Below the pieces are notes generated by a model that made no database searches, had not been told where the DNA came from, and saw only the letters and a program-made list of their open reading frames with translations. Shown here one piece after another: positions 3,923 to 43,276 of a stretch of 64,000 nt of DNA (its first letter is position 1; each line of letters starts with the position of its first letter). The position numbers were made by a program, and so were the translations under genes. Source of the stretch: a virus; IMG/VR virus record IMGVR_UViG_3300043788_000040, positions 96,001-160,000 of that record; one strand, given 5' to 3'.

Positions 3923-4361
3923 TTGTCCCCGCTGCAACCGCCCGTTCAGTGAGGGAGGCAAGCCCCGCCGACCGGGAGATCGGCGCTGTGGCGCGGCTAA
4001 AGGACTGTGCAGTGAGTGCTATCACAAGGAGTATCACGCTGGTAAAACACCAGAACAGCGTGAGGCTCATCGCAAACGCACCCGAGAGCGCAGTGCTGAG
4101 GCTAAGGCTGAAGTCTACCGAATTCTAGGACGTGCTTGTGCCTGCTGCGATGAGAGGCGAGAAGAGTTCCTGACTGTTGACCATATCGGCGGAGGCGGAC
4201 GCAAGCACAGGAAGAAGATTGGGTCAGGCCTTTGGTTTTACCAGACGATTCTCAAAGAAGGCGTCCCCAGAGATAAGTATCGGTTGTTGTGTTGGAACTG
4301 CAACAGCGCCATTGGCGTGTTTGGGTATTGCCCGCACGAAAGGGAGAGAAATGGGAGTTGA
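3912..4361 (+). CDS. HNH-type endonuclease (free-standing)
   Basis: CACC...LTVDHIGGGG...LLCWNCN..IG.FGYCPH zinc/HNH pattern. Confidence 0.8.
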   Translation: MGPDCPRCNRPFSEGGKPRRPGDRRCGAAKGLCSECYHKEYHAGKTPEQREAHRKRTRERSAEAKAEVYRILGRACACCDERREEFLTVDHIGGGGRKHRKKIGSGLWFYQTILKEGVPRDKYRLLCWNCNSAIGVFGYCPHERERNGS

Positions 4362-5514
4362 TACACATAAGGTGGAGATTGTTCCAGTCAGTCTTGAACC
4401 GCACCCGAATGCGGATCGCTTATCTGTGGTGCGGGTGTACAACTTCACTTGCGTCGTGAATACCGCCGACTGGACTGGTGTTGAGAAGGCTGCGTACGTC
4501 CAGCCGGACTCCGTCATGCCGGACACGCCCGAGTACCGCTTCCTCAAGAACACCTCCAGCTTCCGCAAGGAACGTGAGGCTCTTGATGCCGTGCTTGCGG
4601 CAGATCACGAGAGCGACCTTTGCCGACTGGATTACAACGAGAAGGTCGCTGCCCTTGAGGCGAAGATTGACGCCAACACCAAGCACCTCCGCATCACCGT
4701 GAAGAAGCTACGTGGCATCATCTCCATGGGTATGCTCCTGCCCGCGCCGGAAGGCTCACAGATCGGCGACGACGTGGCGGAGCAGCTTGGCATCACGCAC
4801 TACGAACCGCCCTCTATGGACGAGCTTGACGGCCGCAGGCAGCATGCCGGGGACGATGTCGGACCCGCGTCGCCGATGATCTACGCCCCGAAGTACGACG
4901 TGGAGTCCATTTACAAATTCGCCGACTGCTTTGACGCGGGCGAGCCTGTGTACGTGTCCGAGAAGCTGGACGGGCAGAACGGCCGCTTCGTGGCGACTGA
5001 GAACGGCAACGAGACGGTCATAGAGCCGGGACGACGGTCCACCCTCGTCTCCCTGTACGCCGGATCGCGCACCGAGTGGAAGAAGAAGGAAGGCGGCTCA
5101 AACTGGTGGAGGGTCATGGAGGACAACCCTTGGATTGATCGGTGGTGCTACGACAACCAAGACTCCGTCCTTTACGGGGAAGTCTTCGGCTGGGTGCAGG
5201 CTCTCAAGTACGGAGCCAAGCCAGGGCAGCTTTTCTTCCGCGCCTTTGACGTCATGGAAGGCATGGAATACTGGGATGCCGAAAAGTTCATTGCGGAGAT
5301 TTATAAGGATTGCCGAGTACCGGACTTCGGCGTCATGCCGTACGACTTTGAGAAGTTGCAGGCCTTAGCGGATGGACCCTCCCTCATCAAGGGTGCCGAC
5401 CACATGCGCGAGGGCATCGTGATCAAGCCAGTCAAGGAGCGCAAGCACTGGAAGCTGGGGCGTGTTATGTTGAAGATGGTTTCCAACGCGTACCTTGAGA
5501 AATCCGCAAGATAG
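4351..5514 (+). CDS. RNA ligase, DRB0094/Rnl5-like
   Basis: N-terminal HPNADRL module; motif I SEKLDGQNG, YGEVFG, FRAFD, REGIVIK, MLKMVSNAYL. Confidence 0.9.
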   Translation: MGVDTHKVEIVPVSLEPHPNADRLSVVRVYNFTCVVNTADWTGVEKAAYVQPDSVMPDTPEYRFLKNTSSFRKEREALDAVLAADHESDLCRLDYNEKVAALEAKIDANTKHLRITVKKLRGIISMGMLLPAPEGSQIGDDVAEQLGITHYEPPSMDELDGRRQHAGDDVGPASPMIYAPKYDVESIYKFADCFDAGEPVYVSEKLDGQNGRFVATENGNETVIEPGRRSTLVSLYAGSRTEWKKKEGGSNWWRVMEDNPWIDRWCYDNQDSVLYGEVFGWVQALKYGAKPGQLFFRAFDVMEGMEYWDAEKFIAEIYKDCRVPDFGVMPYDFEKLQALADGPSLIKGADHMREGIVIKPVKERKHWKLGRVMLKMVSNAYLEKSAR

Positions 5515-22769: not shown

Positions 22770-24767
22770 TTAGTATTCGTACCCCACGACGCACACAGTC
22801 GCGTTGCCAGTGTTCACCTGCGAAAGTGTGCTGATGCCCACTTGCTGACCAGCCGCTATTTCTAATCCATCTGGAAAAACTTGCTCGGCGTTGCCTACGT
22901 CAGCCGTGCCTGAGGTCGTAGATGGAGAGGCGAATAGGGTGCAGTAAATCGGCGAGGTGACGAGGACAGCCGCAGCAGCGCGGATGCGTGCTTTGACTGC
23001 GCCGATGCCAGTATTGACTTGCGAAGCCAGCGTCATGCTCTGCATGCGGAACGTTTTACCAGCCGTCACGGTGTACGAAGTTCCCGTTGTCGTTGCACCG
23101 TTCTTGGTGATGCTCATCGTCTGCAAAGCTTCCGCCGCTGGGGCTGTAACGTTGTCGATATACAACACCACTACGGTGCGACCAGAGTCCTTGAGTTCTT
23201 GCACCTTGGTCGGTGGTACTCCGTTGGATTGTGCCGCGAAACCAACGGTGACCGTGCCCGTCCCTGTGATAGCTGGGCTGAGTCGGACGCGGAAGTATTG
23301 CCAGCCTCCGATGTTGAACTTGAAGGAGATGTAGGTGCTGGCTTGGAACGTGTAGGACTGGATGTCATTGCCGTCAGCGGCATAGTTGACACCTGAGGCT
23401 GCGACCCAGTTGGCGTTATCGTTGCTGACTTCGAAGTTGGCAGCACCACCCGTGATCGTCGTCGTCTGGTTGAAAGTGACTAGGATAGTGTTGTACGAAA
23501 AGTTCGCACTGAGCAGGGTGACGGCTGTATTGTTCGCTGTGGCAGATGTCCAAGATGCAGCGGCGGTGTTGCTAGTGCCGCTGTTCGCTTCCTTCAAAGC
23601 ACCAATGGCGTCAACCTGCAAGGGCGATACGTTACCCGTGGTGATTGTAGTGGGGGTCGTGTTGAACTGTCCGGCGATCAGAAGCTCGTTGGCAGGAGAG
23701 GCTGCGTTTTGACCCGCAGCATCCATCGCCGCGCCCGTATTTCCGACAATGCCAACCTTCTGCACACCAGCCGCAGCCGTTACGACAGCCACACCTGCCA
23801 CTGCTTGCAGATCGTGATTGAGTGCGCCGTGTAAATCGGTAACGGGCAGGACTTGATCGCCTGTCGTGTAAGTGACAGTCGTGTACGCGGTCTCAGCAAT
23901 CGCAGGCAGTACGCCAAGATTTTGAGCGTTCGGAGCCGCGTTATTGTTGGTCAAGTTGCCAACGACTGTGAACGGTGCGGCTGGGTTTGTCACATTGACG
24001 TTCAGCGACGTGCCTGTCGCGGTGATCCCGGTGACGCCAGCGAACAGAGAAGAGTTGACGGCTGGAACTGCAACGGCTGCTGGAGCCGATCCGAAGTTTA
24101 CAATCGCCGTGGCACCGAGTGCTGTACCTGCGACAGCTTGCAAATCTTGGTTGAGAGCACCGTGCAGGTCCGTGACGGGAAGCACCATGTCGCCCGTGGT
24201 GTAGGTGACGGTCGTGTACGCAGTCTCAGCAATAGCACCCAGTACGCCAACTAGCGTTGCGGTAGGAGCCGCGTTGTTGTTCGTTAGGTTTCCGTCAACG
24301 ACCCATGGGGTTGTGCTCTGCGTGACACCCACGGTCCCTGAGATTGCTGTCGTGGAGAGGGAACTGACAAACGAGTCAGCGGAGTATCCGATGGTGACCG
24401 TTCCCGTGCCTGTGATTGCCGAACTAAGAAGAACTTGAAAATACGGAATGGCGGTTAGGTTAAACTGGAAGACCGCGTAGGTGTTCGCTTGAAGCGTGTA
24501 CGTAGCTCCCACCAACGCCAGCGTGGAGGTGTTGAATCCTTGAAGGTTGAAGAAGTTTACGCCGTCGAAGCTGCCCTGAAATGTGACCACGCCGCCTGTG
24601 ATCGTGGTGGTCTGTGACAGGGAAATGTTCAGGGTGTTGTAGGAGATGTCATTGCTGACCAGCGAGGCGACTGTGTTGAGAGCAGTGCTGCTGTTCCACG
24701 CGACAAACGAAGGGTTCTGCGAACCTACGCTGATACTTGCCGTGATGGAATACTGTGACTCAGGCAT
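22770..24767 (-). CDS. Putative virion surface/fibre protein with GNLTNNNAAP repeats
   Basis: T/A/V/G/N-rich; two W.S.TA.NT modules, two GNLTNNNAAP/TDLHGALN repeats, shared C-terminal domain. Confidence 0.8.
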   Translation of the reverse strand: MPESQYSITASISVGSQNPSFVAWNSSTALNTVASLVSNDISYNTLNISLSQTTTITGGVVTFQGSFDGVNFFNLQGFNTSTLALVGATYTLQANTYAVFQFNLTAIPYFQVLLSSAITGTGTVTIGYSADSFVSSLSTTAISGTVGVTQSTTPWVVDGNLTNNNAAPTATLVGVLGAIAETAYTTVTYTTGDMVLPVTDLHGALNQDLQAVAGTALGATAIVNFGSAPAAVAVPAVNSSLFAGVTGITATGTSLNVNVTNPAAPFTVVGNLTNNNAAPNAQNLGVLPAIAETAYTTVTYTTGDQVLPVTDLHGALNHDLQAVAGVAVVTAAAGVQKVGIVGNTGAAMDAAGQNAASPANELLIAGQFNTTPTTITTGNVSPLQVDAIGALKEANSGTSNTAAASWTSATANNTAVTLLSANFSYNTILVTFNQTTTITGGAANFEVSNDNANWVAASGVNYAADGNDIQSYTFQASTYISFKFNIGGWQYFRVRLSPAITGTGTVTVGFAAQSNGVPPTKVQELKDSGRTVVVLYIDNVTAPAAEALQTMSITKNGATTTGTSYTVTAGKTFRMQSMTLASQVNTGIGAVKARIRAAAAVLVTSPIYCTLFASPSTTSGTADVGNAEQVFPDGLEIAAGQQVGISTLSQVNTGNATVCVVGYEY

Positions 24768-24799: not shown

Positions 24800-24828
24800 A
24801 AAAGAAAAGGGGCACCTTGCGGTGCCCC
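24800..24828 (-). terminator. Rho-independent terminator of the minus-strand ncRNA unit
   Basis: GGGGCACC-GCAA-GGTGCCCC followed by TTTTCTTTT on the minus strand. Confidence 0.85.
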
Positions 24829-24905
24829 TCGTCCGAATGCCTCAACTTCAAGGCACGCCCTGATAAAGATCAAAATTGATGACAGGCAGGATGGGTACGA
24901 TCAAG

Positions 24906-24990
24906 CGGAAGGCACCGGAGTTGAACCGGAGAGGTTTCCCTCCCATCGCTTTATCAGGGCGTGCTCAATGACCTATTGAGATTACCTTCC
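24906..24990 (-). tRNA. Non-canonical tRNA-Sec-like (8/4 allo-tRNA type) RNA, anticodon GAU, no encoded CCA
   Basis: Minus strand: GGAAGGTA/TGCCTTCC acceptor, CTCAAT/ATTGAG D-stem, loop CTGATAA, V-arm GGAGG-GAAA-CCTCT, T-arm CCGG-TTCAACT-CCGG, G discriminator. Confidence 0.8.
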
Positions 24991-25045
24991 GAGAGCAGCC
25001 CTGCCTGTCAAATGTCTAATACCCTCTCCCCAACAATTCAGCCGA

Positions 25046-26602
25046 TTAGATTGCAGCGGCTTCTTCTGACCAGCGGATGGAACCAAAAGCCTTGGAAGTA
25101 CCAGTGCCGAACTTCTGAGCGGCAAGGGTGTAGGTGTCTCCAGGTGCCCCGGCAGCCATGTACTGCAACAGCATGTCGGTGTGCGCGGGAGCCGAAGCAA
25201 GCATAGATGACCAAACCACGGTTCCGGTGCCGATAGTGACAGCAGTCGCCGTGACGTCACGCTTGATGTGCGAACCAGTCGGAATACCAGTCGCCGTGAA
25301 CGCTGCGCCCGTGAGGGTTTGGGGGTTCTTGATGAGCACGACCTTGACCTGCGAGCCGTCTCCGTACGCCTGAACCTCGCGGATAAGGAATGACTCCGTG
25401 GTTGAGTTGGACTGAATCGAGATCAGCGGTACCAGCGTGGCGTTCGGCAGTGTGATGAGGGTCGTGAAGCCGGAGTCGTCAGCGAAGTAGTTGATTGACT
25501 GGGCATACTGCTCATCCGCAGGAATCGTGACCAGCGAACCGCCCTGCGACACGCGCAGAAGTTCTTGGTCGCCAGCGGTGTAAGCCGGGAGGGTGACGGT
25601 CGGGAACGTGCCGGAGTCCGTGACTGCGATCAACGCGCCGATGTTGTTCGTAGTCGGAGCCGCGTTGTTGTTCGTCAGGTTGCCAGCGATTACCCAAGGC
25701 GTGGTGCCCTGCGTGACTGCGACCGTGCCGCCCGTGACATCCACGTTCAGGCTGGAGCCTGTCGCGGTGATGCCCGTGGTTCCGGCGAAGATTGAAACGT
25801 TCGCGCCGATTACGTTTGCAGCAGCGGGTGCCGTACCGAAGGCGGTAACAGCAGTCGCACCCAGTTGGACGCCAGCCGAAGCCTGCATGTCGTTGTTGAC
25901 TGCGCCATGGAGGTCGGTGACTGCCAGTACTTGGTTGCCCGTCGTGTAGGTGACGGTGTTGTAAGCGGTCTCAGCGATGAAGCCCAGCACGCCCATGTTG
26001 TCGGCAATCGGGGCTGCCGTGTTGTTAGACAGGTTGCCAGCAACCGTGACGGTAGTCGTGCTACCAGTCAGGTTGACGTTCAGCGCACCGCCCGTGTTCG
26101 TCAGAGCCGTGGTGCCTGAGAAGATTGAGGAGTTGACAGCCGGAACGTTTACAGCGGCCGGAGCCGAACCGAAGGCGACTACTGCGGTCGCGCCAAGCTG
26201 GACGCCAGCAACAGCCTGCAAGTCGTCATTGACTGCTCCATGCAAGTCGGTGGTCGCCAGAACTTGGAAGCCGTTCGTGTAGGTGTTGGTCGTGTACGCG
26301 GTTGAAGCAAGGAAGCCAAGCGTGCCGAGGTTGTCTGCAACGGGCGCTGCGTTGTTGTTCGTCAACGTGCCCATGACGTTCGTGGTGCCCGCGAACGTGG
26401 CGTTGACGTTTAGAAAGCCGTTTGGAGTGGACGAGAGCGGCTGGAAGTTGCCGTTGCTGTCCATGCTGCCGACTAGGATGCCCGATGTCGGGGACGCTGT
26501 GCCATTAGCAGCAAATAAAGGCGATTCGGTGTTGTTGTCGTACAACCCGGAGACTGTGACTGTCGTGTACTGGTCAGTTCCGGGGAATAGTGTCAATGGC
26601 AT
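25046..26602 (-). CDS. Putative virion surface/fibre protein with G.L.NN.AAP repeats
   Basis: Two full and one partial ~110-aa repeats; C-terminal LVPLISI...DTYTL...WSEE domain shared with the 396-aa gene. Confidence 0.8.
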   Translation of the reverse strand: MPLTLFPGTDQYTTVTVSGLYDNNTESPLFAANGTASPTSGILVGSMDSNGNFQPLSSTPNGFLNVNATFAGTTNVMGTLTNNNAAPVADNLGTLGFLASTAYTTNTYTNGFQVLATTDLHGAVNDDLQAVAGVQLGATAVVAFGSAPAAVNVPAVNSSIFSGTTALTNTGGALNVNLTGSTTTVTVAGNLSNNTAAPIADNMGVLGFIAETAYNTVTYTTGNQVLAVTDLHGAVNNDMQASAGVQLGATAVTAFGTAPAAANVIGANVSIFAGTTGITATGSSLNVDVTGGTVAVTQGTTPWVIAGNLTNNNAAPTTNNIGALIAVTDSGTFPTVTLPAYTAGDQELLRVSQGGSLVTIPADEQYAQSINYFADDSGFTTLITLPNATLVPLISIQSNSTTESFLIREVQAYGDGSQVKVVLIKNPQTLTGAAFTATGIPTGSHIKRDVTATAVTIGTGTVVWSSMLASAPAHTDMLLQYMAAGAPGDTYTLAAQKFGTGTSKAFGSIRWSEEAAAI

Positions 26603-30664: not shown

Positions 30665-30766
30665 GTCGTGCAGCGGTGTTTAGCTGACGGATACTTCTTC
30701 CAATGAACAGCCCGCTAGGGCTGCGGAGGCTTGCCTCCTTTCCGTTGCTTATTGTTCCCTGCCGAC
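30665..30766 (+). ncRNA. Y-RNA-like RNA 1
   Basis: Ends pair; shares 5' GTGCRGCGGT..ACGG.TACTTC and 3' CCG..GC.TATTGTTCCC.GC blocks with copy 2; two internal hairpins; upstream of TROVE. Confidence 0.7.
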
Positions 30767-30775
30767 AATTCTTGT

Positions 30776-30901
30776 GTGCGGCGGTTTTTGGTTACGGTTA
30801 CTTCTGCCTGTAAAGCAGACGAGCGGGGTTCGACCCCCCGGCGACCCGTGAGGGTCGTGGCGTGGGCCTAGTCAAATACCGAAGCCTATTGTTCCCCGCA
30901 C
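30776..30901 (+). ncRNA. Y-RNA-like RNA 2 with permuted tRNA-mimic domain (YrlA-like)
   Basis: T-arm CGGGG-TTCGACC-CCCCG, capped acceptor GCGACCC-GTGA-GGGTCGT, anticodon-like arm TCTGC-CTGTAAA-GCAGA. Confidence 0.8.
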
Positions 30902-31019: not shown

Positions 31020-32450
31020 ATGGCATCACTCAACACTGCAACGAAGACTGCAAAGACTGCAATCAAGACCGCCGAGGGCGGCAAGGCTGTCAACATTGGC
31101 AAGGCGCTTCAGCTTCAGCGCTTGCTGAACGCATGCCTCCTGTGGGAGGACAACTTTTACTCTGACGGCGAGTCCGTCGCCAACGCGATGCGCAAGCTCG
31201 TGCGTGAGGTTCCTGCCGAGAAGGTCGCCGAACTCGCGATCAAGGCTCGTGAAGAGCAGAAGCTTCGCCACGCCCCGCTGCTCATCGTGTACGAGATGAC
31301 CCTCGCCTCCAAGTCTCACCGTGAGCTTGTCGGGGAGACGCTCGCCCGTGTGGTTCAGCGCCCGGACGAGATCACTGAGTTCGTGGCGATCTACTACAAG
31401 CTTGGCGGCGGGAAGCGTCCGCTCTCCAAGCAGGTCAAGAAGGGTCTGGCCGCAGCCTTCAACAAGTTCAACGAGTACTCGCTCGCAAAGTACAACCGTG
31501 ATAAGGACATCAAGCTCGCGGACGTGCTGGCGCTCGTTCACCCGAAGCCGAAGGACAAGGAACAGGGTCTTCTTTTCGCGAAGCTTGCGAACAAGGATCA
31601 CCTGCCGAAGAAGACGAAGTACGCCGCGTTTCCGGTGGCTAACACCTACCGTGCGCTCGCAAAGAACTTCGTCGGCCTCGTCACGCCGGACACTTGGGAG
31701 GTCGCACTCTCTGGTGGAGCGGACAAGAAGGAGACTTTCACTCGTCTCATCGCCGAGGACAAGCTTGGTGGTCTGGCAATGATCCGCAACCTGCGCAACA
31801 TGCAGGAAGCGGGCGTGTCGGATGCGGTCATCAAGCAGGGTCTCTCGCAGATGAACGCTGAGCGTGTGCTTCCGTTCCGCTTCATCTCGGCGGCGAAGTA
31901 CGCTCCGAAGTTTGAGCAGCACCTTGAGGCAGCGATGTTCAAGTGCCTTGAGGGCTTCTCCAAGCTGAAGGGCAAGACTGTGCTGCTCGTGGACGTTTCT
32001 GGTTCCATGGACAACAAGGTCGGCGGCAAGTCTGATCTCCAGCGTGTGGACGCAGCCGTAGCTCTCGCAATGTTGCTCCGTGAGATCGGCGAGGACGTGG
32101 TTGTCTACTCGTTCTCGGACAATGAGGTTCTCGTTCCGACTCGTCGTGGCTTCGGCCTCGCTGAGGCGATCAAGAAGTCTCAGCGCCACTCCGGCACCTA
32201 CCTTGGTCGCTCTTTGACTGCGGTGGCTCGTGCCGAGAATGACGCAGACCGTGTCATTGTGATCTCGGACGAACAGGCTCACGATAACGTCTCCAACCCG
32301 TTCCACAAGACCGGGACGAAGGCATACATGCTCAACGTCGCTTCTGAAAAGAACGGCGTCGGCTACAAGAACGGCTGGAACCACATTGATGGCTGGTCTG
32401 AAGCTTGCGTTGACTATATCCTCGCGGAGGAAGGTTCTTCCCGCGACTAA
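31020..32450 (+). CDS. rsr: Ro60/TROVE-domain RNA-binding protein with vWA domain
   Basis: LLWEDNFY, RPDEITE, FNEYSLAKY, TWEVALS, IRNLRNM, LPFRF; vWA LVDVSGSM and ISDEQ. Confidence 0.93.
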   Translation: MASLNTATKTAKTAIKTAEGGKAVNIGKALQLQRLLNACLLWEDNFYSDGESVANAMRKLVREVPAEKVAELAIKAREEQKLRHAPLLIVYEMTLASKSHRELVGETLARVVQRPDEITEFVAIYYKLGGGKRPLSKQVKKGLAAAFNKFNEYSLAKYNRDKDIKLADVLALVHPKPKDKEQGLLFAKLANKDHLPKKTKYAAFPVANTYRALAKNFVGLVTPDTWEVALSGGADKKETFTRLIAEDKLGGLAMIRNLRNMQEAGVSDAVIKQGLSQMNAERVLPFRFISAAKYAPKFEQHLEAAMFKCLEGFSKLKGKTVLLVDVSGSMDNKVGGKSDLQRVDAAVALAMLLREIGEDVVVYSFSDNEVLVPTRRGFGLAEAIKKSQRHSGTYLGRSLTAVARAENDADRVIVISDEQAHDNVSNPFHKTGTKAYMLNVASEKNGVGYKNGWNHIDGWSEACVDYILAEEGSSRD

Positions 32451-36693: not shown

Positions 36694-37821
36694 ATGAAGA
36701 ACGAATTCACAGAACAGCGATTTGACTACTCGCAGGGACGTCCCAACGCCCCGGAGTTGACCATCACTGTCGGTCTGTCCGGCTGTGGTAAGTCCACGTG
36801 GGCGAAGCAGGAAGTAACCCGGAACCGTGGCGACATCGTGCGCCTGAACCGTGACGATATGCGCAAGATGCTGTTCGCTGACGTGCCGTGGAACTCGTTC
36901 AACGAGAACCTCGTGCGCAACTGGCAGCAGGAAGGCGCTCGTCAGGCGCTCCAGATGGGCAAGAACGTGATCATTGACGACACCAACTGCGTCCGGCGCA
37001 CCCGGCAGGGTTGGGAAGAGTTTGCACAGAAGAACTTTGTCAAGCTGCGCATCGTGACGTTCAACACGGACTTCAAGGTCTGCGTTGAGCGTGACAAGGG
37101 ACGTGGAGTGATTTGCACCGCATGCGGCAAGGCTAACGGCGTAATGGTCGGTGAGGGCGTGATCGCAAAGCAGCGGAAGGATTTGGGTGACAACAAGGTG
37201 AAGGACAAGACTCCAAAGGTTTACAAGCTGACTCGTCCGTTCTTTGAGCGTACTGAGTACCTCAAGAACGGCGGGTGGGTCACCCGTCTGCCCAACGCCA
37301 AGTGGGTGTTGGTGGACGTGGACGGCACGCTGGCGACCTTCACAGCCAAGGACGGCACCTCGCTTCGGGGTCCGTTTGAAGAGCACAAGGTGCTCGTTGA
37401 CGAACTCATAGAGTCCGTCGCCGAGATGGTTCGGTCGCTGTACCCGACTCATAACGTCTGCATAATGTCCGGTCGCCACGACTTCTGCGGCGACGACACC
37501 TGCGACTGGCTGGAGATGAACGCTGTCCCGTTTGACCACATACTGATGCGATACAGTGGGGACAACCGCTCCGACGCTGTCGTCAAGCAGGAGTTGCTGG
37601 ACGAACTCACTGCCGTGATAGGCAAGGACAACGTGGCGTTCGTGATAGACGACCGCCCACGTGTCTGCGACATGTGGAGGGGCAACGGTCTCACGGTGAA
37701 GCAGGTTTACGCCGGAGAGGTCTTGGAGAACCCGACCGTCAAGCACGCAGACGGCTGCGCCTACGAGAATCAGAAGGGTTACAGGCGTTGCCCCGATTGC
37801 GGAGCATTGGAGTATTTTTGA
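36694..37821 (+). CDS. pseT: Polynucleotide 5'-kinase/3'-phosphatase (T4 PseT-like)
   Basis: GLSGCGKST, LNRDDMR, IIDDTN; HAD DVDGTLA, SGR, IDDRP. Confidence 0.92.
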   Translation: MKNEFTEQRFDYSQGRPNAPELTITVGLSGCGKSTWAKQEVTRNRGDIVRLNRDDMRKMLFADVPWNSFNENLVRNWQQEGARQALQMGKNVIIDDTNCVRRTRQGWEEFAQKNFVKLRIVTFNTDFKVCVERDKGRGVICTACGKANGVMVGEGVIAKQRKDLGDNKVKDKTPKVYKLTRPFFERTEYLKNGGWVTRLPNAKWVLVDVDGTLATFTAKDGTSLRGPFEEHKVLVDELIESVAEMVRSLYPTHNVCIMSGRHDFCGDDTCDWLEMNAVPFDHILMRYSGDNRSDAVVKQELLDELTAVIGKDNVAFVIDDRPRVCDMWRGNGLTVKQVYAGEVLENPTVKHADGCAYENQKGYRRCPDCGALEYF

Positions 37822-40535: not shown

Positions 40536-41648
40536 ATGATACTCCTCAAGAACATTCTGCCTTACGACTTGTTCAAGCGCATGCTTGACGAGGGATACAT
40601 CCGTTCACAGGTACACCCCCTCTATCCCGAGTTGGTGATCTTCAACTACACCGAGGCGGCGCAGTTTGACCGCCTGTGGAATGAGGCGACCAACGTGTGC
40701 CGTGGCTTGATCGTGCGGCTCGCGAACGGCGTGCTTGACGGCGATGCCGAGGTCGTGGCTCGTCCGTTCAACAAGTTCCACAACCTGAACACTGCCTACG
40801 TGCCGGAGACGATGGAAGAGAACTTGCCGAACGAGGCTCCGCTCGTGACCACGAAGATGGACGGTTCCATGGGGATCATCTACGAGTACGACGACAAGGC
40901 GTGGGTGGCGACTCGTGGATCGTTTGACTCGGATCAGGCTCGCCGGGCGACGGCGTGGTATCGTCAGCACGCGGCGATGTTGCCGCAGGGTTGGCCGGAC
41001 GGCGTTACGCCCGTGTGCGAGATCATCTACCCGGAGAACCGGATCGTCGTTGACTACGACTTTGAGGGGCTTGTCCTGCTCTCAATCATAGACAACGAGA
41101 CTGGGAAGGAGTTGTCGCGCTTTGATGTTGAAATGTGGGGTGCGATCAACACGCTCCAGGTTGTCACAAAGTTTGACAAGTCACTCGCTGAGTGCGCAGC
41201 CGAGAACACGCTGAACGAGGAGGGGTATGTCCTGACCTACTCCAACGGCGTGAAGGTCAAGGTGAAGTTTGCGGAGTATGTCCGGCTCCACCGTGTCCTC
41301 ACTGGGCTGAATCCGAAGGCGATCTGGGAGATGCTTGCCCAGAACGGCGGCGAGGCAGTTGACGCAATCCTCGCAGACCCGAAGATGCCGACCACTTTCA
41401 TCTCGTGGTTCAAGGGATGGGTGGATCAGCTTCGGGGGAAGTATGCGGAGATTGAGCGTGAGGCGCTGGCTATTTTCGCAGCACGTCCGCAGTCGTCTGT
41501 CCGCAAGGATCAGGCACTCTACTTCAAGCAGACACCGCTGCACATGTCGCTCCTGTTTGCAATGCTGGACGGCAAGAACTACGCCGGAATCATCTGGGAC
41601 AGGATCGCACCGAAGGGTAACCAGACGTTCAAGAAGGATGGGGAGTAA
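40536..41648 (+). CDS. rnlA: RNA ligase, T4 Rnl1-like
   Basis: CRGLI, RPFNKFHN, motif I TKMDGSMG, ATRGSF, EIIYPENRIVV.Y, EEGYV, KVKFAEY. Confidence 0.92.
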   Translation: MILLKNILPYDLFKRMLDEGYIRSQVHPLYPELVIFNYTEAAQFDRLWNEATNVCRGLIVRLANGVLDGDAEVVARPFNKFHNLNTAYVPETMEENLPNEAPLVTTKMDGSMGIIYEYDDKAWVATRGSFDSDQARRATAWYRQHAAMLPQGWPDGVTPVCEIIYPENRIVVDYDFEGLVLLSIIDNETGKELSRFDVEMWGAINTLQVVTKFDKSLAECAAENTLNEEGYVLTYSNGVKVKVKFAEYVRLHRVLTGLNPKAIWEMLAQNGGEAVDAILADPKMPTTFISWFKGWVDQLRGKYAEIEREALAIFAARPQSSVRKDQALYFKQTPLHMSLLFAMLDGKNYAGIIWDRIAPKGNQTFKKDGE

Positions 41649-41974: not shown

Positions 41975-43276
41975 ATGACTGATTCCTTCCATCTCGCAGC
42001 GCACGTCAAGGTGATGCACACCCTTGAGCACCACGGCTTTGAGGCTTTCCTCGTCGGTGGCTGCGTGCGTGACCGCCTTCTCCAACGGCAATCCAAAGAC
42101 TTTGACGTGACGACTAACGCCACGCCCGATGAAGTTCGTGCGATCTTCCCCAAGACCATTCCAGTCGGCGCAAAGTTCGGCGTCGTGGTCGTGGTGATGG
42201 ACGGTGTTCAGATTGAAGTCGCCACCTACCGTGCTGATGGCGCATACACTGACGGTCGGCGACCGGATGAAGTCACGTACAGCAAGAGTGCGAAGGACGA
42301 CGTGACTCGCCGGGACTTCACCATGAACGGCTTGCTGATGAATTCCCTCGGCGAGATCACTGACTACGTTGAAGGTCAGGCAGACATCAATCGTGGAATC
42401 ATCCGTGCCATCGGTGACCCGAACGTGCGCTTCACTGAGGACGCACTGCGCATGCTTCGTGCCGTCCGTTTCGCAGCACAGCTTGGTTTTGAAATTGAGA
42501 TCAGGACTCTTGAGGCAATCAGGGACAACGCACGGCTGCTCAAGGTCATTAGCCGGGAGCGTGTCGCTGCCGAACTGTTCAAAATCTTCTCTGCACCCTT
42601 TCCCCTCAAGGGAATCGTGCCTTTCATTTCCACCGGGCTGTTCCGCTACGCCCTGCCGGACAATTTCGCTGAGCAAGCGAACATGACACGCACGATTCAG
42701 CGCTTCGGCACGTTCACGGCAAACAAAGACGCCATGCTCGGCATGGGAATGTTCTTCGCCGATCTGGAATACCTCGGACACAATGCTGACCGCTTGGCAG
42801 ATTACCTCAAGCTGTCCACGGCGCAGAAGGAAGAGATCGTTTACATGCGGTACCACGTGACCCGTTTCGGGCAGCACTTGACCGGAGACCTGTTGACCGA
42901 GGCTACGCTCAAGCGCAAGCTGCGCACGCCGGGCGTTGAACTGGCGCTGGAGATCATGACGCAAAACGAAGTCATGGGCAAGACCAATTTCGGCTTTGAG
43001 GCGCTGATGGGTTTTGTTCACAAGGTCAGGGCGTACACACCGGAGCAGATCAAGCCGAAGCCGCTCGTCACGGGCAAGGACTTGATTGATGCCGGGATAC
43101 CAGCCGGACCGATCTTCACGAGCATCCTGTTTGACGTGGAGAGTCACCAACTTAACGGCGTGTTCACGACGAAAGAGCAGGGCATGAGTTTCGTGCGTGA
43201 GCGCACCTACCAAGACACGCTCAAGGAATGGAACTACATGGGCTTGTCCACGGCGGAAGTGCGGGAGCTAGAATGA
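41975..43276 (+). CDS. cca: CCA-adding tRNA nucleotidyltransferase (PolyA_pol family)
   Basis: VGGCVRDRL, DFDVTT, EVATYR, RRDFTMN, RFTEDALRMLRAVRF, SRERV. Confidence 0.9.
   Translation: MTDSFHLAAHVKVMHTLEHHGFEAFLVGGCVRDRLLQRQSKDFDVTTNATPDEVRAIFPKTIPVGAKFGVVVVVMDGVQIEVATYRADGAYTDGRRPDEVTYSKSAKDDVTRRDFTMNGLLMNSLGEITDYVEGQADINRGIIRAIGDPNVRFTEDALRMLRAVRFAAQLGFEIEIRTLEAIRDNARLLKVISRERVAAELFKIFSAPFPLKGIVPFISTGLFRYALPDNFAEQANMTRTIQRFGTFTANKDAMLGMGMFFADLEYLGHNADRLADYLKLSTAQKEEIVYMRYHVTRFGQHLTGDLLTEATLKRKLRTPGVELALEIMTQNEVMGKTNFGFEALMGFVHKVRAYTPEQIKPKPLVTGKDLIDAGIPAGPIFTSILFDVESHQLNGVFTTKEQGMSFVRERTYQDTLKEWNYMGLSTAEVRELE

What the first reader, a model, noticed from the sequence alone, without database searches (positions are those of the whole stretch)
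24906..24990. tRNA-Sec-like 8/4 body carrying an isoleucine GAU anticodon (candidate mistranslating allo-tRNA)
Seen: 8-bp acceptor GGAAGGUA/UGCCUUCC, 4-bp T-stem, 6-bp D-stem, long GAAA-capped variable arm, G discriminator, anticodon loop CU-GAU-AA, no encoded CCA. Established: the GGAAG...CUUCC-G acceptor, long D-stem and long V-arm are tRNA-Sec/Ser features read by SerRS, which ignores the anticodon. 8/4 allo-tRNAs with non-Ser anticodons are a described class. The arm resembles the common bacterial tRNA-Ile arm CACGC-CUGAUAA-GCGUG with three inserted bases. Inference: it may insert Ser at AUC/AUU codons or act as a decoy for anticodon nucleases or IleRS. The phage CCA enzyme could mature it.
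Basis: partly seen in the sequence, partly recalled or inferred. Interest (0 to 1): 0.85.

Follow-up and report, generated by a model that had tools for sequence, protein, structure and literature searches.

The report
Self-masked tRNA-like RNA cassette in phage
A large uncultured phage carries a unique 191-base inserted cassette encoding a serine-tRNA-shaped RNA with an isoleucine anticodon, a sealed acceptor end and a built-in perfect antisense to its own anticodon arm. It is therefore more likely a masked tRNA mimic than a working mistranslating tRNA.

Summary
On the minus strand, 24990..24906 folds as its lowest-energy structure into a cloverleaf: 8-bp acceptor stem, 4-bp T stem, 6-bp D stem, long GAAA-capped variable arm, G73, loop CU-GAU-AA and no CCA.

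It is homologous to serine tRNAs. Its acceptor stem and the "CUU" after G73 match tRNA-Ser(GCU) genes found mostly in Planctomycetota, and also some phage 8/4 tRNA-Ser genes. GAU is one substitution away from GCU.

New context:
- It is the core of a ~191-nt cassette inserted between a tail-fibre-like gene's stop codon and its terminator. The three nearest relatives with DNA lack it; three more have gene spacing too short to hold it.
- The cassette carries its own phage promoter motif (GTATTAGA), which predicts a transcript start at the first base of an 11-12-bp leader/trailer stalk.
- It ends in a 16-nt perfect antisense of the anticodon arm. This is the longest such spaced inverted repeat in the 170-kb contig and has no equal near about 900 other tRNA genes.
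- The anticodon stem is degraded. 30 of the phage's 31 real tRNA genes encode CCA; this one does not.

Best reading (about 0.45): a ~210-nt non-decoding tRNA mimic. A latent Ser-for-Ile tRNA (0.18) or a young relic (0.25) remain possible. I found no homologue, so function is inferred. Other first readers of this scan flagged the same stretch of this genome.

The parts
24847..25037 (-). Inserted cassette of about 191 nt (an 'RNA moron'), lying between the stop codon of the upstream gene and the resident terminator
   Evidence: Alignment A2. Relatives L153, L154 and L155 go directly from TAA plus about 10 nt to the terminator. The gene-to-gene spacer is 83-91 nt in six relative contigs (five homologues; DNA held for three) against 278 nt here.
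25015..25022 (-). GTATTAGA, a phage promoter-like motif inside the cassette. The predicted transcript start is G at 25009.
   Evidence: The motif occurs 11 times in the genome against about 3 expected. Four copies have a start codon 4-5 nt downstream, which indicates leaderless mRNAs. The same spacing here puts the start on the first base of the stalk. This is inference.
25000..25010 (-). 5' arm of the stalk (TGACAGGCAGG)
   Evidence: It is an 11-nt perfect inverted repeat with 24880-24890. Pairing probability is 0.8-0.99 in the predicted transcript. In 834 other phage tRNA contexts the longest perfect leader/trailer complement is 3-10 nt.
24906..24990 (-). tRNA-shaped core: 8/4 cloverleaf with a serine-type body; anticodon GAU at 24953-24955
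24949..24964 (-). Masked segment: last D-stem base, 5' strand of the anticodon stem, the whole anticodon loop and two further bases (GCACGCCCUGAUAAAG)
   Evidence: It is perfectly complementary to 24853-24868.
24880..24890 (-). 3' arm of the stalk (CCUGCCUGUCA)
24853..24868 (-). 'Lock': a 16-nt perfect antisense of the anticodon arm, at the 3' end of the cassette
   Evidence: The duplex energy is -28.9 kcal/mol. A nested locked fold is -83.4 against a minimum of -87.2 kcal/mol. It is the longest spaced perfect inverted repeat in the 170.5-kb contig; only one other reaches 12 nt. Among 781 phage tRNA genes the longest complement to the flanks is 11 nt, and among 120 cellular tRNA-Ser genes it is 10 nt.
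24807..24830 (-). Resident intrinsic terminator, which pre-dates the insertion
   Evidence: It is conserved in L153, L154 and L155 with compensatory stem changes.
25046..26602 (-). Upstream repeat-rich, tail-fibre-like gene (518 aa)
   Evidence: No Pfam or PHROG family matched.
22770..24767 (-). Downstream paralogous repeat-rich gene (665 aa)
   Evidence: 68% identity over shared repeat modules. Homologous to the same 1257-aa ORF of L001.

Best explanation
The element is a tRNA-Ser(GCU)-derived RNA gene that has been rebuilt into a self-contained, self-masked small RNA.

A ~191-nt cassette was inserted behind a tail-fibre-like gene of this phage lineage. I read its parts, in order, as follows:
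1. A phage-type promoter (GTATTAGA) starts transcription at the first base of a stalk.
2. The 8/4 cloverleaf folds.
3. The trailer pairs back onto the leader over 11-12 bp plus a short interrupted helix. This extends and seals the acceptor end.
4. A 16-nt perfect antisense follows. It can nucleate on the open anticodon loop and displace the weak anticodon stem.
5. The pre-existing terminator ends a transcript of about 210 nt.

I infer that the main product is this full-length RNA. In it the 3' end is not free for CCA addition or charging, and the GAU loop is masked or maskable. It would therefore act as a non-decoding tRNA mimic. It could be a decoy or sponge for some tRNA-directed host or phage factor, such as an anticodon nuclease, a modification enzyme or a synthetase. 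That fits a phage that also carries RNase P RNA, Ro60 with Y RNAs, a polynucleotide kinase-phosphatase, two RNA ligases and a CCA-adding enzyme.

Shown: the fold, the homology to tRNA-Ser, the insertion, the two exceptional inverted repeats and the missing CCA.
Inferred: the transcript ends, which structure dominates in the cell, and the partner and purpose.
For: - Fold and homology.
- Acceptor stem GGAAGGUA/UGCCUUCC plus G73 plus 'CU' is shared with 120 cellular genes. Of the 116 that ARAGORN called, 114 are tRNA-Ser(GCU). Nearly all are from Planctomycetota, and none encodes CCA.
- All 119 phage tRNAs fetched with a similar body (first six acceptor pairs GGAAGG/CCTTCC plus G73) carry serine anticodons.
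- The cassette is absent from three relatives with DNA and from three more judged by spacer length. Its borders are sharp.
- The promoter motif is enriched and sits at leaderless-mRNA spacing.
- The stalk pairs with probability about 0.99, the lock duplex is -28.9 kcal/mol, and the locked fold lies within 3.8 kcal/mol of the minimum.
- Both repeats are outliers against 781 and 834 phage tRNA contexts and 120 cellular tRNA contexts, and against the whole genome.
- 30 of the 31 genuine tRNA genes encode CCA, all are on the other strand, and all lie in arrays.
- The anticodon stem has only three Watson-Crick pairs in the standard frame.
- RNA-repair and tRNA-mimic gene content.
Against: - There is only one instance. 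I found no homologue of the cassette in IMG/VR, JGI metagenome contigs, the GTDB species genomes or the phage records. There is therefore no covariation and no test of selection.
- Nothing shows that the RNA is made or where its ends lie.
- In the nested-fold ensemble the lock is paired in only 0.6% of structures. Whether a pseudoknotted or dimeric locked form is sterically possible is not known.
- No target for a decoy is identified.
- The T loop, the D-loop GG, U33 and purine 37 are all intact. A decoding tRNA would need them too.
Confidence: 0.45

Rival explanations
1. Latent ('pro-') mistranslating tRNA. The stalk and lock keep a serine-accepting, GAU-reading tRNA inert until RNase P and a 3' nuclease release it. 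The phage or host CCA enzyme then completes it, SerRS charges it, and it inserts Ser at AUC/AUU codons.
For: - The body carries the features SerRS reads, by established knowledge and as stated in PMC5389517: a long variable arm and G73.
- The first three acceptor pairs are identical to real tRNA-Ser genes.
- 8/4 allo-tRNAs with sense anticodons insert Ser in E. coli (PMC5389517, read).
- U33, A37, the T loop and G18G19 are intact.
- The phage has RNase P RNA and a CCA-adding enzyme.
- Cellular genes with this acceptor also lack CCA, so a missing CCA alone does not disqualify it.
- A safety lock would make sense for a toxic tRNA.
Against: - The anticodon stem has two mismatches, or a bulge with a 9-nt loop. 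Allo-tRNA(UAU) species with destabilised stems were inactive in translation (PMC5389517).
- The 11-12-bp leader/trailer helix extends the acceptor stem. From general knowledge, this hinders RNase P.
- 47 per 1000 of the phage's own codons are AUC or AUU, including 22 in the gene just upstream.
- The cassette is dispensable in relatives.
- The element lies outside the tRNA arrays and lacks their encoded CCA.
Confidence: 0.18
2. Young relic. A tRNA-Ser(GCU) gene was picked up by illegitimate recombination and is decaying (GCU to GAU, stem mismatches). The inverted repeats are recent by-products of replication template switching, and the cassette has no function.
For: - Single occurrence with no conservation.
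- GAU is one step from GCU.
- The anticodon stem is degraded.
- Relatives do without the cassette.
- The tail-gene region shows other variable insertions in relatives, such as GIY-YIG/HTH and acetyltransferase genes.
Against: - There are two separate, perfect and interleaved inverted repeats, so one hairpin event cannot explain them. The genome has only one other spaced repeat of 12 nt or more.
- The promoter motif is placed so that the transcript would start exactly at the stalk.
- The complementarity has sharp 16-nt borders at the very end of a compact cassette.
- All tertiary-interaction bases are still intact.
Confidence: 0.25
3. DNA-level element. The inverted repeats are protein-binding or recombination sites (an invertible switch, or the ends of a small mobile element), and the tRNA shape is incidental cargo.
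For: - It is an insertion with repeats near its ends.
- There is a weak direct repeat, TGAA(N)TTG, at both junctions (read).
Against: - The 16-nt arms enclose only 80 bp, which is short for an invertase.
- The two repeat pairs are interleaved.
- There is a single copy in the genome, and no copies elsewhere.
- I saw no recombinase next to it.
Confidence: 0.05

Closest known systems
(8/4) allo-tRNAs (Mukai et al. 2017, PMC5389517; review PMC7609411)
   Same: 12-bp acceptor branch split 8+4, long variable arm, long D stem, G73 and a non-serine anticodon on a serine-type body. The described allo-tRNA(UAU) group also has destabilised stems, an Ile-box anticodon and no activity in translation.
   Different: - Here the RNA sits in a phage cassette with its own promoter, a leader/trailer stalk and a 16-nt cis antisense of the anticodon arm. 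Neither paper mentions any of these where I read them.
- The D loop has 5 nt, not 4.
- The anticodon stem is not a regular 6-bp helix.
- 'GAU' has no occurrence in the main text of PMC5389517. Its anticodon table is a figure, which I could not read.
tRNA-Ser(GCU) genes found mostly in Planctomycetota, and phage 8/4 tRNA-Ser (for example in L142, L147, L076)
   Same: Identical acceptor stem GGAAGGUA/UGCCUUCC and G73. The cellular genes also share 'CU' after G73 and the lack of encoded CCA. The anticodon loop is CU-GNU-AA. The T loop UUCAACU is shared with L076 and L142.
   Different: - The anticodon is GAU instead of GCU.
- Overall identity is only about 72-76%.
- The D arm has a different shape from the cellular genes (6 bp with a 5-nt loop, against 4 bp with a 10-nt loop).
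- None of the 120 cellular genes, nor any of the phage tRNA genes checked (781 for the lock, 834 contexts for the stalk), has a comparable stalk or lock.
YrlA-type bacterial and phage Y RNAs with a tRNA-like module (PMC4201824)
   Same: A non-decoding RNA built from tRNA parts with its ends locked in a helix. This phage has Ro60 and two Y-like RNAs 6 kb away.
   Different: - In YrlA (from my own recollection of the paper, not read here) the ends emerge on the anticodon side and the acceptor end is looped. Here the ends extend the acceptor stem and an anticodon arm is kept.
- There is no Rfam match to a Y RNA.
- The stalk lacks the bulged C and the UAUUGUU strand of this phage's Y RNAs.
Functional tRNA trailers such as the 3'ETS of leuZ, an sRNA sponge in E. 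coli (from my own knowledge; not checked here)
   Same: A tRNA 3' trailer that carries a base-pairing sequence.
   Different: Here the trailer is antisense to the RNA's own anticodon arm, not to other small RNAs.

Membership tests
(8/4) allo-tRNA | 12-bp acceptor branch split as an 8-bp acceptor stem and a 4-bp T stem | tested here: met
   Minimum-energy fold. Pair 8 is A-U and a fifth T pair would be U.U.
(8/4) allo-tRNA | Long variable arm and a G73 or U73 discriminator (the SerRS-type elements) | tested here: met
   5-bp variable arm with a GAAA loop, and G73.
(8/4) allo-tRNA | Long D stem with a tetraloop, as in tRNA-Sec | tested here: inconclusive
   The stem is 6 bp, but the loop is AGGUC, 5 nt.
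(8/4) allo-tRNA | Lengthened, regular anticodon stem | tested here: not met
   Either 5 pairs with a bulged A and a 9-nt loop, or three Watson-Crick pairs flanked by A.A and C.A in the standard frame. The Rfam alignment marks three non-standard pairs.
(8/4) allo-tRNA | Non-serine anticodon | tested here: met
   GAU at 24955..24953.
(8/4) allo-tRNA | Charged and used in translation | not testable with these tools
   This needs charging assays or tRNA sequencing.
Canonical tRNA / tRNA-Sec as curated (Rfam RF00005, RF01852; ARAGORN default) | Reaches the curated detection threshold | tested here: not met
   No match at gathering score. tRNA-Sec scores 32 bits against a cut-off of 47. ARAGORN at default finds none.
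This phage's own tRNA gene set | In a plus-strand array with an encoded 3' CCA | tested here: not met
   30 of 31 genes encode CCA, and all lie on the plus strand at 30-80 kb. The element is alone on the minus strand and is followed by CUU.
tRNA-Ser(GCU), type found mostly in Planctomycetota | Acceptor stem GGAAGGUA/UGCCUUCC, G73, and no encoded CCA | tested here: met
tRNA-Ser(GCU), type found mostly in Planctomycetota | Serine anticodon | tested here: not met
   GAU, one substitution from GCU.
tRNA-Ile(GAU) | Class I 7/5 body with A73 and a CUGAUAA loop | tested here: not met
   Only the loop matches. The body is 8/4 and class II with G73. A phage tRNA-Ile with the arm CACGC-CUGAUAA-GCGUG exists in L119.
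YrlA / Y RNA | Match to the family model, or this phage's own Y-RNA terminal helix motifs | tested here: not met
   No Rfam match. The bulged-C helix and the UAUUGUU strand seen at 30670-30900 are absent from the stalk.

The most novel reading that the evidence does not exclude
A phage-borne 'pro-tRNA'. This would be a serine-accepting tRNA that reads isoleucine codons and is kept harmless by a sealed acceptor end and a cis antisense of its own anticodon arm. Nucleolytic processing would release it at a chosen moment, causing Ile-to-Ser mistranslation as a weapon against the host or a competing phage. It would be the first natural tRNA with a built-in antisense safety catch.
Probability: 0.12. 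Interest if true: 0.9.

Novelty: new variant of a known kind. Interest (0 to 1): 0.55.

Why it matters
tRNA-shaped RNAs that do not decode are emerging as tools in phage-host conflict, and allo-tRNAs still have no established natural role. This cassette is a compact, directly testable case. It is a serine-tRNA derivative with an isoleucine anticodon whose two functional ends (the acceptor end and the anticodon) are each paired to a dedicated cis partner. In my searches I found no description of a tRNA or tRNA mimic carrying a perfect antisense of its own anticodon arm. If the masking is real, it is either a new way to switch a tRNA-like RNA on and off or a new decoy design. If the RNA is matured and charged, it would be a regulated mistranslating tRNA. 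The weakness is that there is only one example and no expression data.

Tried and rejected
**Searches for homologues (all empty or chance)**
- Phage records by blastn with the intergenic region and with the 3.8-kb neighbourhood: no match.
- IMG/VR exact scan for the anticodon arm: no match.
- IMG/VR scan for a perfect 6-bp version of the arm: no match.
- IMG/VR scan for the stalk pair: one chance hit inside a gene.
- JGI metagenome scan for the body pattern: no match.
- JGI metagenome scan for the arm pattern: 16 hits, none in a tRNA-like context; they read as coding sequence.
- GTDB genome scan with a strict body pattern: no match.
- Paralogues inside the 170-kb contig by blastn and by the covariance model: none.
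- Related contigs carrying the tail-fibre-like genes or Ro60: cmsearch on the fetched Ro60 loci found only ordinary tRNA genes. The whole-contig searches returned nothing, but their first-pass filter also missed tRNA-Ser genes that cmsearch finds. Those two calls therefore carry no weight.

**Ideas rejected**
- A split tail-fibre gene interrupted by the element. The two flanking genes are paralogues, each matching the same region of a longer ORF.
- A Y RNA.
- A retron or DGR-like element. This rests only on the Pfam and PHROG scans of the four nearest ORFs, which matched no family of either kind.
- An attenuator of the resident terminator. I found only 5 nt of possible anti-terminator pairing by eye.
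- A 33-codon ORF running from the anticodon arm through the trailer. It has no ribosome-binding site and only 3 Ile codons, so I treat it as chance.

**Literature**
- Searches for phage tRNA decoys and tRNA-like RNAs gave background only.

Full report

Yes. RNAfold gives the cloverleaf as both minimum-energy and centroid structure (-31 kcal/mol, z = -2.7). Its parts are:
- an 8-bp acceptor stem, GGAAGGUA/UGCCUUCC
- an AU linker
- a 6-bp D stem with loop AGGUC, which keeps the GG
- an anticodon arm with loop CU-GAU-AA
- a 5-bp variable arm capped by GAAA
- a 4-bp T stem with the standard loop UUCAACU
- G73, followed by CUU rather than CCA

The 8/4 split is forced. Pair 8 is A-U, and a fifth T pair would be U.U.

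Standard detectors do not accept it. ARAGORN at default settings finds no tRNA in the window and calls 'tRNA-Ile (gat)' here only at a relaxed threshold. Rfam has nothing at gathering score. The best sub-threshold match is tRNA-Sec at 32 bits against a cut-off of 47. Homology to tRNA is nevertheless secure, because a covariance model built from this single sequence recovers real phage tRNA-Ser genes at up to 49.7 bits, E = 8e-12.

**2. What body is it?**

A scan of IMG/VR for the same general acceptor and T-arm pattern returned 119 tRNAs. Every one has a serine anticodon: ARAGORN called 106, and I read the other 13 by eye. Of the 85 distinct sequences, 21 are clearly 8/4.

The nearest neighbours are L142, L147 and L076. 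They share the identical 8-bp acceptor stem, and L142 and L076 also share the T loop. L142, a tRNA-Ser(GCU), also shares the first 11 bases and has the arm CCCGC-CUGCUAA-GCGUG.

ARAGORN called 116 of them, and 114 of those are tRNA-Ser(GCU). Nearly all come from Planctomycetota. They are followed by CTT, CTC or CTG and never by CCA. In samples of 151 genomes each, the pattern occurred in 5 of that phylum. In the phylum of a MAG labelled Gammaproteobacteria it occurred only in the seed genome. The skew is real, but the type is confined to part of the phylum.

The element therefore looks like a copy of this tRNA-Ser(GCU) type, down to the CUU after G73, and GAU is a single substitution from GCU. 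In standard numbering no insertion is needed, but A27.A43 and C31.A39 are mismatches around three G-C pairs. Either way the stem is weak.

**3. Context: a private cassette**

The element lies between two paralogous, repeat-rich, tail-fibre-like genes. Homologues of the upstream gene at 72-86% identity exist in metagenomes. In six contigs carrying five of them, the spacer to the next gene is 83-91 nt. Here it is 278 nt.

Aligning the three contigs whose DNA could be fetched shows a clean insertion of about 191 nt, roughly 24847-25037. It lies between the stop codon plus about 10 nt and a terminator that is conserved in all of them.

The inserted piece begins with GTATTAGA. This motif occurs 11 times in the 170.5-kb contig against about 3 expected. 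In four cases a start codon follows after 4-5 nt, as expected for a -10-like element driving leaderless mRNAs. One copy precedes the RNA ligase gene, which is followed by the CCA-enzyme gene. The same spacing here predicts a transcript starting at G 25009, the first base of the stalk.

**4. The two inverted repeats**

Stalk:
- An 11-nt perfect repeat (25000-25010 with 24880-24890) pairs leader with trailer around the cloverleaf.
- In the predicted 212-nt transcript it pairs with probability about 0.99, and the cloverleaf survives inside it.

Lock:
- A 16-nt perfect repeat pairs 24949-24964 with 24853-24868, the last bases of the cassette.
- The first arm covers the 5' strand of the anticodon stem, the whole loop and two more bases.
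- The duplex is worth -28.9 kcal/mol.
- A fully nested 'locked' fold lies only 3.8 kcal/mol above the minimum. A pseudoknotted or dimeric form that keeps the other helices could be lower still, but I could not evaluate that.

Controls:
- Among 781 distinct phage tRNA genes, the longest perfect complement between a tRNA and its 250-nt flanks is 5-11 nt.
- Among 834 contexts, the longest leader/trailer complement is 3-10 nt.
- Among 120 cellular tRNA-Ser genes the maxima are 10 and 8 nt.
- In the whole contig, only one other spaced perfect inverted repeat reaches 12 nt.

Both features are therefore real outliers. They are interleaved, so a single hairpin-forming mutation cannot explain both.

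**5. Does it decode?**

Points in favour:
- The body has what SerRS reads, and SerRS ignores the anticodon (established knowledge, stated in PMC5389517).
- 8/4 allo-tRNAs with sense anticodons do insert Ser in E. coli.
- U33, A37, the T loop and the D-loop GG are intact.
- The phage has RNase P RNA and a CCA-adding enzyme.

Points against:
- The anticodon stem is degraded. Comparable allo-tRNA(UAU) species were inactive in translation.
- The extended leader/trailer helix should hinder 5' and 3' maturation. This rests on general knowledge and was not tested here.
- 30 of the phage's 31 genuine tRNA genes encode CCA and sit in plus-strand arrays. This element does neither.
- AUC plus AUU are 47 per 1000 of the phage's own codons, 22 of them in the gene just upstream.
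- Relatives live without the cassette.

I therefore rank the readings as follows:

| Reading | Confidence |
|---|---|
| Non-decoding, self-masked tRNA mimic | about 0.45 |
| Young non-functional relic | about 0.25 |
| Latent mistranslating tRNA | about 0.18 |
| DNA-level site | about 0.05 |

That content includes a polynucleotide kinase-phosphatase, two RNA ligases, a CCA enzyme, and Ro60 with two Y-like RNAs. No target is identified, however.

**6. Comparison with known systems**

By structure the element meets most, but not all, defining features of 8/4 allo-tRNAs (PMC5389517, PMC7609411). The regular long anticodon stem is not met, and the D loop is a pentaloop. It is not a Y RNA and not a tRNA-Ile.

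What I did not find described is the packaging. That means a promoter-to-lock cassette (an 'RNA moron'), the sealed acceptor end, and the cis antisense of the anticodon arm. I rate it a new variant of a known kind.

**7. Limits**

- There is one instance and no homologue. There is therefore no covariation.
- The promoter, the transcript ends and the fold in the cell are all inferred.
- The contig has no terminal repeats and is probably incomplete. Missing tRNA-Ile and tRNA-Ser genes may lie elsewhere in the genome.
- The whole-contig searches were insensitive and carry no weight.
- Other first readers of this scan noted the same stretch and its 'antisense lock' in overlapping windows of the same genome. 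I had already seen the repeats.

Noticed in passing
window 30151, 33102, 40505, 48986, 58691, 63567 (+) and 25022, 46278 (-); genome 1504, 47036, 78833: GTATTAGA is enriched (11 copies against about 3 expected). It lies 4-5 nt before the start codon of four ORFs, which suggests a phage-specific promoter without a -35 element that drives leaderless mRNAs. One copy precedes the Rnl1-like ligase gene, which is followed by the CCA-enzyme gene. I did not see the motif at the matching places in the relatives' loci.
   Followed up: partly
window 36694-37821, 40536-41648, 4177-5514, 41975-43276, 31020-32450: A full RNA-repair and RNA-surveillance kit: a polynucleotide kinase-phosphatase, a T4 Rnl1-like ligase, a second RNA ligase, a CCA-adding enzyme and Ro60. 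The phage also has RNase P RNA, at L009:11609-11959.
   Followed up: partly
window 22770-24767 and 25046-26602 (-); L001:3299-7072: The two flanking genes are paralogues built from repeated modules of about 60 aa (motif GNLTNNNAAP...TDLHGALNQDLQAVAG). A relative has one 1257-aa ORF with many such modules. No Pfam or PHROG family matches.
   Followed up: partly
L172-L291 (GTDB genome contigs): The acceptor stem GGAAGGUA/UGCCUUCC-G marks tRNA-Ser(GCU) genes that come almost only from Planctomycetota (Pirellulales, Planctomycetales, Gemmatales, Isosphaerales). Position 8 is A and can pair, so these may be natural 8/4 tRNAs. This hints at a planctomycete host or donor for the phage's element.
   Followed up: partly
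L031:14044-14137, L117:1719-1809 (-), L135:2976-3065: Phage contigs carry 90-94-nt tRNAs with a long variable arm, an encoded CCA and the isoleucine-box anticodon UAU. L031 is a Ro60-bearing relative of this phage. These are class II bodies with an Ile anticodon, called at ARAGORN's default threshold. L031's lies in a run of tRNA genes.
   Followed up: no
L011:19604-19678 (genome 79604-79681): The second tRNA-Phe(GAA) copy has G73 instead of the usual A73 and two extra bases before the anticodon. It was the best hit of the element's model within the genome (30.5 bits).
   Followed up: no
contigs of P0003, P0004, P0005, P0007: In relatives, the region upstream of the tail-fibre-like gene varies by small insertions: a GIY-YIG plus HTH_17 gene, an HTH_17 gene alone, or a GNAT acetyltransferase. 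This gene block is therefore a hot spot for accessory cassettes.
   Followed up: no
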